Sequence record: OL631481.1 | Direction: 5' to 3' (one strand) | Source: Escherichia phage ECML-183-2 | DNA length: 64,000 bases | Shown here: in pieces, positions 11,348 to 58,391 of the stretch | Numbering within the stretch: the stretch's first letter is position 1 | Layout: the number at the start of each line of letters is the position of its first letter | Made by a program: the position numbers and the translations under genes | Notes under the pieces: generated by a model | Seen by the model: only the letters and a program-made list of their open reading frames with translations | Databases searched by the model: none | What the model was told of the DNA's origin: nothing

Positions 11348-11435
11348 TGGTGGTGAGTGATGGAGTCGAACCACCCGAATCGCAATGATAACAGATTTAC
11401 AGTCTGCCCCGCTACCCCTACGGAATTAACTCACC
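11348..11435 (-). tRNA. tRNA-Tyr(GTA)
   Basis: acceptor GGTGAGT/ACTCACC, anticodon arm CAGA-CTGTAAA-TCTG, long variable arm, discriminator A, CCA. Confidence 0.8.
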
Positions 11436-12132: not shown

Positions 12133-12342
12133 ATAAATGTGGTAACAGAGACGCTGACGATTGTAGAGAACCGCTACATTCTCTAAGACCAAGCCCAACT
12201 TTCAGCGTAAAAGTTCTTGAGCCGAGACTATTCCTTTTCCTCTTTGGTAGCTAACCTCTGAAGAAGTAGTCTCTAACACTATCCGCAGTGCAAGCCTCTC
12301 TTAACAAAAGTCAACGACCCTGTTACCACACTTGATGAACGT

Positions 12343-13111: not shown

Positions 13112-13590
13112 TGCACACCTCCATTCTTGTTAAGATGTTTCGTACTGTACTTCATACTGATCTATAGATCAAGTATTATTTATAATAATTTATTATTTTA
13201 TTTTTAATTGATAGAAGTTGATCTGTACGTACCAGTTCTGATACACTGTACCTGTTTGTTAGATCTAATAATTATTTATTATTAATATTTAATAATTATT
13301 AATCTAGTACGGAGTACAGTACTTGAGTACAGAGTACTACATCAACAACCTAAAACCTTAACTCGCTGCGCTCGTTAATAGATTTCTAGGGTAGCATACT
13401 TCGAAGACAAAAGTCAAGAGTTTTATTAAAATTATTTTCTGTGTGCAAAAACCTTGCTTAAACAGGTAGCAATAGTATAGTCTATAACATAAGCTTCATA
13501 AGAAGCTCGTAGAGCAAGTTAACTTACTAGGTAAGGTGATTTACATCTTATATATAAAAAGTGCGTCAGAGACGCGTTTAGGAGGCTAGA
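13112..13590. promoter_or_regulatory. AT-rich divergent intergenic control region with palindromes and GTAC-rich repeats
   Basis: perfect 14 bp palindrome TGATCTATAGATCA; repeated AGTACAG/GTACT units; separates minus and plus transcription blocks. Confidence 0.5.
13454..13481 (+). promoter_or_regulatory. sigma70-like promoter (TTGCTT-N16-TATAGT) for the plus-strand early operon
   Basis: hexamers read directly from sequence upstream of first plus-strand gene. Confidence 0.4.
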
Positions 13591-39787: not shown

Positions 39788-39792
39788 TATAC

Positions 39793-39820
39793 TTATACTC
39801 CCTTTTCGGAGGGAGTATTT
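39793..39820 (+). terminator. hairpin ACTCCC-TTTTCGG-AGGGAGT plus T-run
   Basis: read directly. Confidence 0.45.
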
Positions 39821-39832
39821 TAAGGAGGGATT

Positions 39833-49788: not shown

Positions 49789-49831
49789 TATTGCTACGAT
49801 AGGATCACTATCCTATAGTATTGTTTCTGTG

Positions 49832-53720: not shown

Positions 53721-54288
53721 TTCTACCTCCTTCAATGCTTTGTGCCGTACCATCCCAAGCCATTAGAATGTTTTCCAATAGTTCACGAGGCTCTTTAAAC
53801 CAAACTTCCATTTCATCAAGGATCTCGTCCGTGTCGTAAGTATAACCTGGAACACCAAGTTCACATTTCTTAAGATAGCTTTCTAACCAGCGGTGATAAT
53901 TCTTAACCCATTCATACTGTGCTACCTTTTCTTTTACCCAATCTACACGATCTTTATCATAATGTTGAGTGCCAAGGAAAAAACCATTGTGGAAACTTTC
54001 CTCACCGAAAGGATAAATTGGATCTAAACCATCTTCTTCAAATAACATTTTTAATCTGTTTGATGTAGATTTCTTAGTTTCTGAATTGTAGTTTGTGGTT
54101 ATAAGCCAATCTTCCAAACAACGACACAAACCTTGACGAGAATCCCAAGGAAAAACACAATCTCCGACAGGAGCTTGTTTCGCCCATTTCAACCAGCCTT
54201 TAAAAAAGTTATACAGTATGTAGTCTTCAGTGTAATACATTATCTCCTCCTTTACGTATACAATAACACCCCGAAGAACGGGGTGCAA
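53713..54288 (-). CDS. paralog family member (WL...GLC...PF...R-x-WVK signature), long form
   Basis: shares the conserved motif set with 55180-55578, 58065-58391, 58824-59150, 62097-62411. Confidence 0.5.
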   Translation of the reverse strand: MHPVLRGVIVYVKEEIMYYTEDYILYNFFKGWLKWAKQAPVGDCVFPWDSRQGLCRCLEDWLITTNYNSETKKSTSNRLKMLFEEDGLDPIYPFGEESFHNGFFLGTQHYDKDRVDWVKEKVAQYEWVKNYHRWLESYLKKCELGVPGYTYDTDEILDEMEVWFKEPRELLENILMAWDGTAQSIEGGRNE

Positions 54289-54291
54289 CTG

Positions 54292-54903
54292 TTATTTAAT
54301 CTGTTTGAAAATTTCGTTTGGAACGGTACCGTTTAAAATACCTTCTACGATCTCTTGTGCAGATGTGTAAGAGAGTCCAAAAGAAGCTACGCCTAAAATT
54401 GCCTCCTTCAAAGGATCTGGCAGGGGTTCAAAATTACCTGCAACAAAGCCACCTGCACAAGCAGCGCCTTCATCATCCCAGAAAACAACTGCTACATCGT
54501 TACCATGCGAAGTTGTGCGATGTGCAATAACTTCAACTTCGGTGCCTTCTTTAGGAACAGAATAAGAACTGTCCCAAGAATATCTTTCCAAGTCAGGAAC
54601 AAAGATAACCTTTTCACCTACTGGCGGCAGTTCACAACGATAATACCAAGAATTTTTTTCGTTCATTGCTTTATTTTCCTCCACGTCTTCAAAAGTAACG
54701 ATCCAATCGTAGCCGTAAGAAAACGGATATTTTAGATCTAAAGAATAAGTTTGACCTAGATCGTCCTCAACAAGAACCATCCTGTCAAAGTTTGCGATGT
54801 TAGGATTATGTTTAATGACAGGGTATGTTTCCCCTACAGTAAATTGTCCTAAATGGTAAAGTTCATCTCTCCAAGTAATTTGGACATAAGTGCATTGAAT
54901 CAT
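54292..54903 (-). CDS. hypothetical protein
   Basis: 203 aa. Confidence 0.5.
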   Translation of the reverse strand: MIQCTYVQITWRDELYHLGQFTVGETYPVIKHNPNIANFDRMVLVEDDLGQTYSLDLKYPFSYGYDWIVTFEDVEENKAMNEKNSWYYRCELPPVGEKVIFVPDLERYSWDSSYSVPKEGTEVEVIAHRTTSHGNDVAVVFWDDEGAACAGGFVAGNFEPLPDPLKEAILGVASFGLSYTSAQEIVEGILNGTVPNEIFKQIK

Positions 54904-54907
54904 AAAA

Positions 54908-55180
54908 TCACCCCCAAGAAATATTTATATATCTTACAATGTTTGCACTGTCTAAAGCCATGTTTGCACCACACCCACGCTCGCGCCAGTAACTAACAAT
55001 ACCTTCACAGATACTCTCTTGTATCTTCTTATCACTTGGCATTTCTAGTATAAGACTTGGGTTGTGGATGTTTATGTTATAATATCCTTCCTCTGCGGCT
55101 TGAGCTACCAATTTACTTACTTTTTCAAAGTACGGGGAATTAGTGGCATCTGCTATTGTTTTTAAGGTTTGTCTATCCAT
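54908..55180 (-). CDS. hypothetical protein
   Basis: 90 aa. Confidence 0.45.
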   Translation of the reverse strand: MDRQTLKTIADATNSPYFEKVSKLVAQAAEEGYYNINIHNPSLILEMPSDKKIQESICEGIVSYWRERGCGANMALDSANIVRYINISWG

Positions 55181-55578
55181 TATTCTGCCTCATCATAGAA
55201 GAAATCCAACTCTTGTTCCAGTTGTTTAACTTGATCCTTAACCCACTGTACACGTTTTTCATTAAACATGCAACGTTTTTCCTTACACTCTTGCTCAAAA
55301 GATTTTGCTGTGTTAAACGGGAAAGTTGTATCTAAACCAGCATTTTCAAAACTGGCTAATTGCATACCATAAACAGAATATGCTAAAGAATGATCGGCTC
55401 GAAATTCATCACTTATATACATACGTAGACCTCGGCATAAGCCAACATCAGCGTAACCACTTTCTCTTGGAAAGAGACGGAGGTGTTCTAACCAATTATT
55501 ATAGAAATCTAAAAGAATCCTCTTACACTTCAAATCGATTGTCATAAAAAGTTTCTCCTTCATCGAACAAGTTGGCAA
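55180..55578 (-). CDS. paralog family member (WL...GLC...PF...R-x-WVK signature)
   Basis: FYNNWLEHL ... GLCRGL ... FPFN ... KRVQWVKDQ. Confidence 0.5.
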   Translation of the reverse strand: MPTCSMKEKLFMTIDLKCKRILLDFYNNWLEHLRLFPRESGYADVGLCRGLRMYISDEFRADHSLAYSVYGMQLASFENAGLDTTFPFNTAKSFEQECKEKRCMFNEKRVQWVKDQVKQLEQELDFFYDEAE

Positions 55579-55945
55579 GATTGTTCACGGCAATCTGGGT
55601 GGAAAGAAGACAACTGTTTGCAGACACATAAGCACGAGCTATTTTGTAAACATAGGCTTTCGTATTACAATTGTCTAGGATCGGAAGACTTTCGTCGATA
55701 GCATCTATAACACTAAACATCACATCTAAAACTTTAATTGTAAGTATTGTATCTATATCTTCGTAACCTTTTTCAATCCGACCTGAATAGAAAGCATAGT
55801 CCTCAACAGTTCGTCGTTTAAACTGGCGCATAAAATCGGAACCATCTGTAGTAGAATTGAACAAATTTTCAAAAAATACCTCCCATCCGGCAAAAAGGGC
55901 TGACAGCATGATTAAGTGATCTACAGATTCATTTTCTTGTTTCAT
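55523..55945 (-). CDS. hypothetical protein
   Basis: 140 aa; start may be an internal Met. Confidence 0.4.
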   Translation of the reverse strand: MKQENESVDHLIMLSALFAGWEVFFENLFNSTTDGSDFMRQFKRRTVEDYAFYSGRIEKGYEDIDTILTIKVLDVMFSVIDAIDESLPILDNCNTKAYVYKIARAYVSANSCLLSTQIAVNNLANLFDEGETFYDNRFEV

Positions 55946-55953
55946 ATCCTCTC

Positions 55954-56631
55954 CTATTTAATGTTCAATCTAGCACACAAGCGAGAAACAGTTTTAGCAT
56001 CCCACTTACCACCACGTGCTGTTGCGATTTTCTTACTATTGAATTTTTCAGCAATAGTTTTGTAAGGTGTATTTAAATCTCTAAGGATCTCCAAGCGTTC
56101 ACGAAATGTCTCTGCAAAAGCGTCTGCTTTAACAGAATTGTATTCCATTTTTCCTTTTCTACGTGCAGCGGCAGTTTTAGGATTAGCACTGCCTAACAAA
56201 ACACCTTTGCTTTTTGCTACAGCAAGACCCTTTTTAATACGATCAGCAATACCTCTAACTTCTTGTTCAGCCAGAACAGACAGAAGCTGTATAACCATTT
56301 TATCTGCGTCTGGCATGATGGCTATCTTAACATCGATCATTTCTAGAAGAGTTGCTACGGAGGCGTTGTTACGACCCAAGCGGTCAACTTTAGCTACCAA
56401 TAAAGTTGCTCCGGTAGCTTTACACATTTCAACCGCTTTAACCAGTTCCTTACGTTGCTTCCAATCGCCCTTACCAGAATAGTATTCAGAAAATTGACCA
56501 ATAACTTCAGCATCAGGCACAGAGTCTAAGAAGTAACGGATATCGTTCTCTTGGCTCTCCATACCATATTGTGCCTCACCTTTTTTCTGTTTAGAAAGAC
56601 GACTGTAAACAACAAACTTTTTCATAACCAC
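55954..56631 (-). CDS. small serine recombinase (resolvase/invertase family)
   Basis: N-terminal VVYSRLS (catalytic Ser context), VAKVDRLGRN, GIADRIKKG; C-terminal HTH-like region. Confidence 0.65.
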   Translation of the reverse strand: MVMKKFVVYSRLSKQKKGEAQYGMESQENDIRYFLDSVPDAEVIGQFSEYYSGKGDWKQRKELVKAVEMCKATGATLLVAKVDRLGRNNASVATLLEMIDVKIAIMPDADKMVIQLLSVLAEQEVRGIADRIKKGLAVAKSKGVLLGSANPKTAAARRKGKMEYNSVKADAFAETFRERLEILRDLNTPYKTIAEKFNSKKIATARGGKWDAKTVSRLCARLNIK

Positions 56632-56695
56632 TCCTAAACCATTGCTGTATTCTCACTTTACAAAACGAATAAACACTTGTCAAGGTATTTATTAT

Positions 56696-56908
56696 TTACA
56701 GCCATTCTACTTTTAAGCAGTATTCTTCGACATGTTGTTTACGCTTGTTTTTGTCTATGTAAGTGTATTCAACAAATGTCCCAAGATAATCCTTGTCCAC
56801 ATTGTGTTGGCTATTAATTGGACATTTAGTACGACAAACCCGTTGCCACTGACGAAGAATTACGGCTTTGTTTTTAGGATCAAAGGGATGAGGGTAATGT
56901 GCCTTCAT
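56696..56908 (-). CDS. hypothetical protein
   Basis: 70 aa. Confidence 0.4.
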   Translation of the reverse strand: MKAHYPHPFDPKNKAVILRQWQRVCRTKCPINSQHNVDKDYLGTFVEYTYIDKNKRKQHVEEYCLKVEWL

Positions 56909-57232
56909 TCACGCCTCCTGTTTTAGTCGAAAAATATTTTGAATAACGAGAGATGTATAGTTATCACTTAGTCCCATAAGTTCTACTTCCAAGTTTCGAA
57001 TATCTTCCACCGTAGGAGGATATGTTGGTAAAAATGCTTGAGCATTGCCAGATCCAACCTCATTGCTGTAAGCAGTTGTAAAATTGTAAGATACAAAACA
57101 TGAAACACCTTTTTGTCGGTACCCGATTAATCGACGAATACACCAGATAAGAGCCAAACCTATGAGAACACCTCCTAAACCAGCTAACAAGAAGGATAAG
57201 TTCATAATAGCTTCGTTAACAACTGCTTGCAT
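56909..57232 (-). CDS. membrane protein
   Basis: 107 aa, N-terminal TM helix. Confidence 0.45.
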   Translation of the reverse strand: MQAVVNEAIMNLSFLLAGLGGVLIGLALIWCIRRLIGYRQKGVSCFVSYNFTTAYSNEVGSGNAQAFLPTYPPTVEDIRNLEVELMGLSDNYTSLVIQNIFRLKQEA

Positions 57233-58064: not shown

Positions 58065-58391
58065 TCAACCAATTATTTCTTCTGCTACACGTTCTTTTAC
58101 CCAGTTCACACGATCCACATTCAAATGACAACGGCTTTTTTCCGCTTCTAAGGTGTACTTTCCAAAATTACTGTTGAAAGGCAACACCATAACCAAACCT
58201 TTGAGGTAGAACTGCTCATGCATTTCATCCAGTACAGGTTCGTATCGTTCGCTTTCTCCTATGTCGTAAAAATCATAGAGGTTCGTGCACAAACCTGTGC
58301 AACGGGTGAACGGTTCACCTTCAGGAGCACCAGCTTCCAACCATGCCAAATACGTGCGGTAAAATGTTAATAGTTCTTCGCTCATTTCCAC
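58065..58391 (-). CDS. paralog family member (WL...GLC...PF...R-x-WVK signature)
   Basis: YRTYLAWLEAGAPEGEPF ... GLCTNL ... HLNVDRVNWVKER. Confidence 0.5.
   Translation of the reverse strand: MEMSEELLTFYRTYLAWLEAGAPEGEPFTRCTGLCTNLYDFYDIGESERYEPVLDEMHEQFYLKGLVMVLPFNSNFGKYTLEAEKSRCHLNVDRVNWVKERVAEEIIG

What the first reader, a model, noticed from the sequence alone, without database searches (positions are those of the whole stretch)
55954..56631. Small serine recombinase in an otherwise lytic-looking genome
The product has the resolvase/invertase catalytic core (VVYSRLS, VAKVDRLGRN, GIADRIKKG) and a C-terminal HTH-like region. No integrase-sized recombinase or attachment-site-like feature is evident in the window. 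Possible roles are concatemer or dimer resolution, or inversion of a DNA segment, as Gin/Cin/Hin do for tail-fibre switching.
Basis: partly seen in the sequence, partly recalled or inferred. Interest (0 to 1): 0.55.

Follow-up and report, generated by a model that had tools for sequence, protein, structure and literature searches.

The report
Early serine recombinase in lytic coliphage
The window, from a phAPEC8-like (Phapecoctavirus) virulent coliphage, carries an intact and strongly conserved small serine recombinase that databases already annotate; its DNA target and role are still unknown, and the evidence argues against a tail-fibre inversion switch.

Summary
The ORF is real. It is a 223-aa serine recombinase (CDS 55954-56625, minus strand); the true start is the ATG two codons inside the reported GTG. 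All six residues critical in Tn3 resolvase are kept in 36 homologues. Thirty-four nucleotide differences from three relatives are all synonymous. The window is a Phapecoctavirus (about 98% identical to many coliphages). All 64 close relatives have the gene, variously annotated as DNA invertase, resolvase or serine recombinase, and nobody has studied it. Homologues form a phage clade (Justusliebigvirus 57%, Shewanella and Vibrio phages 35-38%, a few ICP1 isolates 30%). The sister group is a large bacterial and plasmid clade, including sole recombinases of 6-kb plasmids. The C-terminal domain is a truncated large-serine-recombinase "recombinase domain", not the Hin/γδ HTH. A σ70-type promoter always sits directly upstream, about 10 kb from the genome's left end. 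Gin/Hin-like inversion is disfavoured: no conserved inverted repeats, and both the tail-fibre module and this locus are colinear in about 65 genomes. Integration is disfavoured: no copies in 5,426 complete E. coli genomes. I found no recombination site. Best guess, at low confidence: a resolvase-type enzyme acting early on phage DNA (monomerisation or cyclisation). It is a new member of a known kind, of modest interest.

The parts
55954..56625 (-). Coding sequence of the serine recombinase (223 aa, ATG start, TAG stop)
   Evidence: ORF list and sequence; Pfam PF00239 E=5e-18; identical 672-nt CDS annotated in relatives; 34 nucleotide differences from three relatives, all synonymous.
56593..56595 (-). 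Codon of the catalytic serine (Ser-11, equivalent to Ser-10 of Tn3/γδ resolvase)
   Evidence: This column is invariant in 36 homologues, as are Y7, R9, R58, D81, R82 and R85; the D36 equivalent is always E or D. The residues critical in Tn3 resolvase are taken from PMC2794168.
55969..56181 (-). C-terminal five-helix DNA-binding domain (residues 149-219), a truncated 'recombinase domain' of the large-serine-recombinase type carrying a TARGGKW motif
   Evidence: AlphaFold2 model with pLDDT 88.6. Weak PF07508 match at residues 189-218. Profile and Foldseek alignments extend into Bxb1, SPβ and PhiC31 integrases. No HTH_7 match.
56655..56683 (-). σ70-type promoter TTGACA-17-TAAAGT directly upstream of the gene
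   Evidence: Consensus scan, 10 of 12 matches. An equivalent TTGAC(A/T)-16/17-TAnnnT sits directly upstream of the orthologues in alia, FKP3, ICP1, Shewanella 1/40, ESCO13, phiWec181, Tr1 and an IMG/VR contig.
56631..56635 (-). Ribosome-binding site AGGAG, 5 nt before the ATG
   Evidence: Read from the sequence.
54292..55945 (-). Four ORFs of unknown function (140, 132, 90 and 203 aa), tightly packed downstream and probably co-transcribed with the recombinase
   Evidence: ORF list. They match only PHROGs of unknown function and no Pfam family. They are not conserved next to the gene in phiWec181, Tr1 or Justusliebigvirus, so a functional link is unlikely.
54266..54286 (-). Terminator-like hairpin that would end the transcription unit
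   Evidence: Consensus scan. Schickermooser's record annotates a terminator after the orthologous last ORF of this unit.

Best explanation
The gene encodes an active site-specific serine recombinase of the resolvase/invertase superfamily. Host RNA polymerase transcribes it from its own σ70-type promoter soon after DNA entry. By analogy with all studied family members, dimers would bind a short dyad-symmetric site and two bound sites would synapse into a tetramer. Ser-11 would then cut all four strands, forming 5'-phosphoserine links, one half of the tetramer would rotate by 180 degrees, and the ends would be rejoined. The most likely substrate is the phage's own DNA at a site not yet identified. 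The most likely role is a resolvase-type deletion or fusion reaction early in infection: turning dimeric or concatemeric replication forms into monomers, or joining the two terminal repeats to make a circle. An inversion switch and integration are both unlikely. Shown here: the fold, the intact active site, purifying selection, the early-type promoter, the distribution among phages, and the absence of inversion or integration signatures. Inferred: that it recombines DNA at all, which DNA it acts on, and the biological role.
For: Catalytic-domain match and structure. All six Tn3-critical residues are kept in 36 homologues at 29-100% identity. Differences from three relatives (11, 16 and 7 nt) are all synonymous. 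The gene is present in all 64 Phapecoctavirus-level records and forms a phage clade with 86% bootstrap support. Full-length homologues (35-40% identity, same C-terminal domain) are the only recombinase on 5.8-6.4 kb plasmids of Klebsiella, Marinovum and Synechococcus, where multimer resolution is the expected job. Several plasmid homologues have a 12+2+12 or 16+2+16 dyad 35-100 bp upstream, as resolvase genes do. The upstream promoter is conserved across distant orthologues. The gene lies about 10.3 kb from the left physical end of the genome.
Against: I found no recombination site. Orthologues share no dyad in or near the gene. The dyad overlapping the -35 box in the window is not conserved in ESCO13, which has the same protein. 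Genome-wide, 26-bp dyads occur at the chance level. A phage with fixed ends and a 329-bp terminal repeat has no obvious need for dimer resolution. The gene sits at different places in sister genera and is present in only 8 of about 82 ICP1 records, so it is not wired into the replication or packaging machinery. The resolvase role of the plasmid homologues is itself inferred, not tested.
Confidence: 0.35

Rival explanations
1. It is a DNA invertase of the Gin/Cin/Hin kind. It flips a segment bounded by inverted sites to switch tail fibres or another phase-variable function.
For: PHROG 125 is labelled 'DNA invertase', and a profile of the family matches the Gin catalytic domain best in the PDB (6e-18). 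A 38-nt, 74% inverted repeat flanks the gene (54925-54962 / 57061-57098), the arrangement seen for hin. It is one of only two local inverted repeats of that quality in the 64 kb.
Against: The right arm is absent from ESCO13, which has the identical protein. Both arms are absent from phiWec181 and Tr1. The 11-bp core is mutated without compensation in iGC_PHA_EC001. Both arms lie inside ORFs. None of the 64 close relatives has the segment in the other orientation. The tail-fibre module is one same-strand block, colinear in about 65 genomes that differ by cassette replacement rather than inversion. The whole genome has no inverted repeats of 20 bp or more except terminators. There is no HTH_7 domain.
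Confidence: 0.06
2. It acts on DNA other than the phage's own, for example the host chromosome, resident plasmids or competing mobile elements. It would be an early host-takeover or inter-element weapon that cuts or rearranges a foreign site.
For: I found no cis site in the phage. The gene is expressed from an early host-type promoter. It is accessory, lying in a variable region of ICP1, a phage known for arms races with satellites. Relatives of the same architecture are common on bacterial plasmids and chromosomes, so cognate sites could exist in hosts.
Against: There is no direct evidence. Hosts of the phage clade are very diverse (Escherichia, Klebsiella, Citrobacter, Vibrio, Shewanella), so a shared foreign target is hard to imagine. 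No precedent is known to me.
Confidence: 0.15
3. It supports a plasmid-like carrier state. It would keep circular phage genomes monomeric so that they are inherited in dividing cells. This is a special case of the resolvase idea, with persistence as the selected function.
For: The nearest non-phage relatives are plasmid-borne. A preprint (10.1101/2024.12.31.630880) retains a phage cluster made of Phapecoctavirus and Justusliebigvirus in its screen for 'persistent virulent phages' in E. coli isolate assemblies. It notes that 19 of 55 lifestyle predictions for that cluster were 'temperate'.
Against: No replication-initiator or partition genes were reported in those phages. Megablast with a 3-kb probe spanning the gene finds no match in 5,426 complete E. 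coli genomes or 72,556 PLSDB plasmids.
Confidence: 0.1
4. It is an integrase of the small serine type, as in filamentous phage φRSM (recalled from memory, not checked here), giving a cryptic temperate lifestyle.
For: It is the only site-specific recombinase in the genome. Lifestyle predictors sometimes call these phages temperate.
Against: Megablast finds no integrated copy of this region in 20,395 records of complete E. coli genomes. Relatives have no annotated repressor or lysogeny module. No attachment-site-like repeat was found.
Confidence: 0.03
5. It has been retained for a non-recombination job, such as DNA-binding regulation, or it is a selfish passenger 'moron' cassette with no benefit to the phage.
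For: The promoter and gene move as a unit between loci. The flanks vary on both sides among phiWec181, Tr1 and ESCO13. The Schickermooser record has a cluster of small indels in the 5' half of the gene.
Against: The invariant catalytic residues and purely synonymous divergence argue for selection on catalysis. The gene is kept in every close relative. The Schickermooser indels are packed into about 200 bp of otherwise clean sequence, which looks more like a local sequencing or assembly error.
Confidence: 0.1

Closest known systems
Tn3 / γδ resolvase (small serine recombinases; PDB 5cy1, 1gdt)
   Same: Best single-sequence PDB matches (3e-6 to 6e-6). Same catalytic fold and long αE helix. Y6, R8, S10, D36 (as E), R68 and R71 are all conserved.
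   Different: There is no HTH_7 DNA-binding domain, no transposon context, and no three-subsite res in the 64-bp upstream spacer. Identity is only about 20-25% in the catalytic domain.
Gin / Hin / Cin DNA invertases (PDB 4m6f, 3uj3)
   Same: Best profile match for the catalytic domain (6e-18). Phage-encoded and of similar size.
   Different: The C-terminal domain is different. No inverted crossover sites or invertible segment were found. The gene is not next to tail-fibre genes. Enhancer/Fis dependence is unknown.
Large serine recombinases (Bxb1, SPβ SprA, PhiC31 integrases)
   Same: The C-terminal helices carry the conserved G..IA..LN..G..T.RG..W motif of the first part of their 'recombinase domain' (PF07508). 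Foldseek and HMM alignments run through it.
   Different: It is less than half their size. It lacks the rest of the recombinase domain, the zinc-ribbon domain and the coiled coil that define attP/attB selectivity. There are no att sites and no lysogeny.
Uncharacterised ~220-aa 'recombinase family proteins' of bacterial plasmids and chromosomes (e.g. WP_179373436.1 on a 5.8-kb Klebsiella aerogenes plasmid; AKP00225.1 on Marinovum pMaD11)
   Same: Same length and two-domain architecture, with 35-40% identity end to end.
   Different: The phage proteins form their own clade (86% bootstrap) with a changed N-terminal motif: RLSKxK..QYG instead of RVST..QGxSGLGLEAQ. Several plasmid genes have a dyad with a 2-bp centre upstream, and the phage genes do not. 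None has been tested experimentally, as far as I could find.
Cre/loxP of phage P1 (a functional analogy only; Cre is a tyrosine recombinase; recalled from memory)
   Same: A phage enzyme that can cyclise terminally repeated incoming DNA and resolve dimers. This is the role proposed here.
   Different: An unrelated protein family. P1 is a temperate plasmid-prophage, and loxP is known, whereas no site is known here.

Membership tests
Serine recombinase superfamily (Pfam PF00239 Resolvase) | N-terminal catalytic domain scoring above the curated cut-off | tested here: met
   65.9 bits against a cut-off of 23.3, residues 7-144. The predicted fold matches Sin, γδ and TP901 catalytic domains.
Serine recombinase superfamily (Pfam PF00239 Resolvase) | Nucleophilic serine and the other residues critical for catalysis (Tn3 Y6, R8, S10, D36, R68, R71) | tested here: met
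   Y7, R9, S11, R82 and R85 are invariant, and position 47 is E or D, in 36 homologues. The residue list comes from PMC2794168.
Serine recombinase superfamily (Pfam PF00239 Resolvase) | Actual DNA cleavage and strand exchange at a specific site | not testable with these tools
   This needs biochemistry or genetics. I found no published work on this protein.
Hin/Gin/Cin/Pin DNA invertases | C-terminal HTH_7-type (Hin-like) DNA-binding domain | tested here: not met
   The Pfam scan at E<=0.1 returns only PF00239 and a weak PF07508 match. The model shows a five-helix domain that aligns with large serine recombinases.
Hin/Gin/Cin/Pin DNA invertases | Two inverted ~26-bp crossover sites bounding an invertible segment at or next to the gene | tested here: not met
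   The only flanking inverted repeat is not conserved with the protein. No orientation variants occur in 64 relatives. No genome-wide inverted repeats of 20 bp or more exist apart from terminators. Short, diverged sites cannot be fully excluded.
Hin/Gin/Cin/Pin DNA invertases | Fis-dependent enhancer | not testable with these tools
   I did not attempt a sequence test for a Fis-dependent enhancer; showing one needs experiment.
Tn3/γδ-type transposon resolvases | res site with several resolvase-binding dyads immediately upstream of the gene, overlapping its promoter | tested here: not met
   The upstream spacer is 64 bp and holds a promoter. Its one partial dyad is not conserved in ESCO13 or phiWec181. 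Orthologues share no dyad from -200 to +900.
Tn3/γδ-type transposon resolvases | Linkage to a transposase and terminal inverted repeats | tested here: not met
   Neighbours are small phage ORFs of unknown function.
Large serine recombinases (phage integrases) | Full recombinase domain plus zinc-ribbon domain and coiled coil (about 450-700 aa) | tested here: not met
   The protein is 223 aa. PF07508 is matched only at profile positions 19-48 of 102 and below the cut-off.
Large serine recombinases (phage integrases) | Integration into a host attB (prophage copies exist) | tested here: not met
   No match to this region in 5,426 complete E. coli genomes or in PLSDB.
Plasmid-type ~220-aa serine recombinases (uncharacterised clade; presumed multimer resolvases) | End-to-end homology with the same two-domain architecture | tested here: met
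   35-40% identity over 95-99% of the protein in 115 of the 124 matching plasmids. Shared invariant columns.
Plasmid-type ~220-aa serine recombinases (uncharacterised clade; presumed multimer resolvases) | Dyad-symmetric site with a 2-bp centre upstream of the gene | tested here: not met
   Present in the Klebsiella plasmid and in 3 of 41 bacterial loci scanned, against 0 of 110 control windows reaching the same palindrome score. Absent from the phage orthologues.

The most novel reading that the evidence does not exclude
The recombinase site may lie inside the 329-bp direct terminal repeats. In that case this early enzyme would join the two ends of the injected linear genome into a circle, a Cre/lox-like cyclisation in a virulent myovirus with fixed ends. 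The same reaction could keep such circles monomeric and so underlie the reported persistence of these 'virulent' phages in bacterial isolates.
Probability: 0.1. Interest if true: 0.7.

Novelty: new member of a known kind. Interest (0 to 1): 0.3.

Why it matters
Recombinase genes are used as red flags when phages are screened for therapy, and this one probably explains why lifestyle predictors sometimes call Phapecoctavirus 'temperate'. Showing that it is not an integrase, with no prophage copies and no large-serine-recombinase architecture, is useful in practice. In biological terms, a catalytically intact site-specific recombinase kept under strict purifying selection in a whole subfamily of virulent 150-kb phages has no explained job. 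Finding its site would show whether these phages pass through a circular or plasmid-like stage, or whether they use the enzyme against other DNA. The compact two-domain protein could also be a small recombinase tool.

Tried and rejected
(1) Inverted repeat flanking the gene (54925-54962 / 57061-57098). It looked notable, as one of only two local inverted repeats with at least 28 of 38 matches in the window. I rejected it because it is not conserved with the protein and no flipped genomes exist.

(2) Partial dyad AATAAATACCTTGACAAGTGTTTATT over the -35 box. I rejected it because its right half differs in ESCO13 and phiWec181, which have the same or a similar protein.

(3) Dyads at the promoters of FKP3 and Shewanella 1/40. 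They are not shared with sister phages.

(4) Genome-wide scans of a complete relative for repeats and for 12+2+12 or 14+n+14 palindromes. The 12+2+12 dyads occur at the chance level. The longer palindromes exceed the Markov controls (29 against 1-17), but the hits are terminator hairpins, AT-rich stretches and the palindromes of the CDS-free end region described in item 6.

(5) Candidate dyad TACGATAGGATC-AC-TATCCTATAGTA (window 49795-49820). It is not conserved in Justusliebigvirus.

(6) The palindrome cluster in the 1.5-kb CDS-free region of relatives. It is conserved and shows one compensatory change, but the palindromes have odd lengths and share no half-site. The region turned out to hold the genome ends and terminal repeat. 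This remains a lead, not a result.

(7) Neighbouring genes in the window and in ICP1. All are of unknown function, with no accessory factor or partition genes.

(8) Literature. No functional study exists, only annotation-level remarks.

(9) Looking up contigs that encode the exact protein gave one short Logan contig and was uninformative.

(10) The first genome-contig scan, using the broad alignment, failed for lack of a conserved stretch. It was redone with a narrower alignment.

Full report
**Observation.** The ORF reported at 55954-56631 on the minus strand exists and contains the quoted motifs. It matches the Pfam resolvase catalytic domain (PF00239, E=5.4e-18, residues 7-144) and PHROG 125, which is labelled 'DNA invertase' (1e-32). 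The GTG at 56629-56631 overlaps the ribosome-binding site AGGAG at 56631-56635. Relatives annotate a 672-nt CDS. The real start is therefore the ATG at 56623-56625, and the product is 223 aa.

**What the window is.** The region is 97-98% identical to many Phapecoctavirus genomes (phAPEC8, ESCO5, ESCO13, ukendt and others; subfamily Stephanstirmvirinae), which are 145-155-kb myoviruses of E. coli. In those records the gene is named 'DNA invertase', 'resolvase', 'serine recombinase', 'recombinase family protein' or 'hypothetical protein'. In some records the label 'methionine ABC transporter ATP-binding protein' also falls on it. The gene's existence is therefore already on record. I found no functional study. 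One paper states without evidence that it keeps concatemers as single genomes (PMC10282059). Another says ESCO5 and ESCO37 have no recombinase (PMC10269720).

**The protein.** I aligned 36 homologues spanning 29-100% identity. Y7, R9, S11, Q25, R58, D81, R82 and R85 are invariant, and position 47 is always E or D. These positions include the six residues whose mutation abolishes catalysis in Tn3 resolvase: Y6, R8, S10, D36, R68 and R71 (PMC2794168). An AlphaFold2 model (pLDDT 88.6) shows three parts: the α/β catalytic core, a long αE helix (residues 109-139) and a five-helix C-terminal domain (149-219). Foldseek and HMM searches match the catalytic domains of Sin, γδ/Tn3 and Gin. Through the C-terminal helices they also match the large serine recombinases Bxb1, SPβ SprA and PhiC31. 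Pfam finds only a weak, sub-threshold match to the first third of the 'Recombinase' domain (PF07508) and no HTH_7. The architecture is therefore a small serine recombinase with a truncated DNA-binding domain of the large-serine-recombinase type.

**Selection and distribution.**
- Against three relatives the gene differs at 11, 16 and 7 nucleotides, with no amino-acid change.
- All 64 Phapecoctavirus-level records carry it.
- The two Schickermooser records show a cluster of small indels within about 200 bp of otherwise clean sequence. This looks more like a local sequence error than decay.
- More distant homologues occur in phiWec181 (74%), Citrobacter phage Tr1 (67%), Justusliebigvirus (57%) and Klebsiella relatives (52-55%).
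- They also occur in Vibrio and Shewanella phages of 127-149 kb (35-38%) and in ICP1 (30%).
- In ICP1 the gene is accessory. Only 8 of about 82 records, the 2017 DRC isolates, have that block.
- A neighbour-joining tree puts the phage proteins in one clade (86% bootstrap), apart from the bacterial and plasmid homologues.
- The bacterial and plasmid group is large.
- It includes 5.8-6.4-kb plasmids on which this is the only recombinase.

**Genomic setting.**
- *Array.* The gene lies in a long same-strand array of small genes of unknown function.
- *Transcription unit.* A σ70-type promoter (TTGACA-17-TAAAGT, 56683-56655) lies directly upstream. Four small ORFs follow, and then a terminator-like hairpin at 54286-54266.
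- *Promoter conservation.* A comparable promoter sits directly in front of every orthologue examined.
- *Distance from the genome end.* Phage Schickermooser has a 329-bp direct terminal repeat (PMC6563267), which I confirmed in its record. It maps into a 1.5-kb CDS-free region about 10.3 kb upstream of the recombinase. The gene is thus among the first DNA to enter the cell.
- *Position differs between sister genera.* In Justusliebigvirus it lies between a methyltransferase block and the HisRS-like...DprA-like genes, and in Shewanella phage 1/40 it is also near DprA. In the window that slot (39788-39832) holds only a hairpin, and the gene sits in the opposite, convergent gene array.
- *Variable flanks.* Within the Phapecoctavirus-like phages the flanks on both sides vary.

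**Test of the inversion idea.**
- A complete relative (iGC_PHA_EC001, assembled here from three loci) has all tail-fibre genes in one same-strand block.
- Its genome has no inverted repeat of 20 bp or more apart from terminators.
- A 25-kb query over the tail module finds about 65 close relatives, all colinear. They differ by cassette replacement, not orientation.
- The locus itself is colinear in all relatives.
- One inverted repeat flanks the gene, which is the arrangement seen for hin: 54925-54962 and 57061-57098, 28 of 38 matches. Only two local repeats of that quality exist in the window, and by my hand estimate the chance of one bracketing this gene is about 0.01.
- However, its right arm is missing from ESCO13, which encodes the identical protein. 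Both arms are missing from phiWec181 and Tr1. Its core is mutated in iGC_PHA_EC001, and both arms lie inside ORFs. I treat it as chance.

**Test of integration.** Megablast with the 3-kb region around the gene finds nothing in 5,426 complete E. coli genomes (20,395 records) or in 72,556 PLSDB plasmids.

**Search for a site.** Some plasmid and bacterial homologues have textbook crossover-type dyads 35-100 bp upstream of the gene:
- TATCATTTGTTTGCCG-nn-CGGCAAATTTATGATA
- CAACTACATACG-AG-CGTATGTAGTTG
- ATATTGTAAACG-AA-CGTTTACAATAT

Three of 41 bacterial loci have such a dyad, and none of 110 control windows reached the same palindrome score; the Klebsiella plasmid is a further case. The phage orthologues have nothing comparable from -200 to +900. 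The partial dyad at the window's -35 box is not conserved where the protein is. Genome-wide, 26-bp dyads with a 2-bp centre occur at the chance level (11 observed against 4-10 in Markov controls). The site therefore remains unknown.

**Interpretation.** The data show an active-looking, selected, early-expressed serine recombinase that is neither a Hin/Gin-type switch nor an integrase. I favour a resolvase-type reaction on phage DNA (monomerisation or cyclisation) at a confidence of about 0.35. The reasons are homology to the plasmid clade and the lack of any better-supported alternative. The reasons for caution are the missing site, the fixed-end genome, the changing position of the gene and its accessory status in ICP1.

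The rivals are:
- action on foreign DNA (0.15);
- maintenance of a carrier state (0.10);
- a non-recombination or selfish role (0.10);
- inversion (0.06);
- integration (0.03).

The carrier-state idea draws on a preprint that retains a Phapecoctavirus/Justusliebigvirus cluster in its screen for 'persistent virulent phages' in E. coli isolate assemblies. The remaining probability is 'something else'.

**Novelty.** This is a new, uncharacterised member of a well-known enzyme superfamily, and its presence is already annotated. The open and modestly interesting question is why virulent phages of this group keep a site-specific recombinase at all.

Noticed in passing
window 56696-56908 (-): The 70-aa ORF just upstream of the recombinase is a DUF7202 (PF23832) protein. 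It matches the T4-type 'tk.3' gene at about 78-82% DNA identity in many T-even-like phages, which suggests fairly recent exchange between unrelated myovirus groups. Several records mislabel it 'ABC transporter ATP-binding protein'.
   Followed up: partly
window 12135-12333 (-): A ~200-nt element closed by a long stem lies immediately 5' of the tRNA array. It folds at -80 kcal/mol (z = -4.6 against shuffles) and matches no Rfam family. It could be a structured leader or an unknown RNA.
   Followed up: partly
window 11351-11435 (-): Rfam's tRNA model finds an eleventh tRNA-like sequence (39 bits) that ARAGORN did not report.
   Followed up: no
window 55180-55578 and 58065-58391 (-): Two paralogous small ORFs (PHROG 2510, unknown function) lie on either side of the recombinase. 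Related copies occur in the Justusliebigvirus array, so this is a repeated gene family within the early region.
   Followed up: no
L011:29367-30912 (relative iGC_PHA_EC001, record 129367-130912; outside the window) and L009:18121-19942: A 1.5-kb CDS-free region is 65-81% conserved between Phapecoctavirus and Justusliebigvirus and contains three palindromes. The first (ATTAGCaCGCTATG-7-CATAGCGaGCTAAT) shows a compensatory CG-to-GC change in both arms in the other genus. No Rfam family matches. The region holds the physical genome ends.
   Followed up: partly
L099:1-329 = L100:2167-2495 (Schickermooser); L011:30298-30626: The 329-bp direct terminal repeat is confirmed in the record. The sequence starting at each repeat boundary is similar (AGCAAGTTCTCTTA and AGCACTTCTTA) and both boundaries are conserved in Justusliebigvirus. 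These may be the terminase cutting motifs.
   Followed up: partly
L011:21477-29409 (relative; outside the window): A family of direct repeats (for example ACGTAGGGCGGCAATGGTGCCGCTCA and CTGATAAGATGTATCACATAGGGCGG) recurs in the gaps between many small genes of the leftmost array. They look like promoter-plus-hairpin cassettes, reminiscent of the 'PeSL' elements of T4-type phages (recalled from memory).
   Followed up: no
window 13168-13303: An AT-rich cluster of overlapping palindromes lies in the non-coding gap between divergent gene blocks next to the tRNA region. It is among the strongest palindromes in the genome and could be an origin or a regulatory region.
   Followed up: no
window 39788-39832 (+): A hairpin (TACTCCC-TTTTC-GGGAGTA followed by a T run) sits exactly where Justusliebigvirus carries its promoter-plus-recombinase cassette. 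It marks the 'empty' version of that insertion point.
   Followed up: partly
L017:2417-2770 (Schickermooser MK373788.1): The 5' half of the recombinase gene carries about a dozen small indels within about 200 bp, while the flanking sequence is clean. The record therefore annotates only the C-terminal 128 aa. This is probably a local sequencing or assembly error, but it could be a natural null allele.
   Followed up: partly
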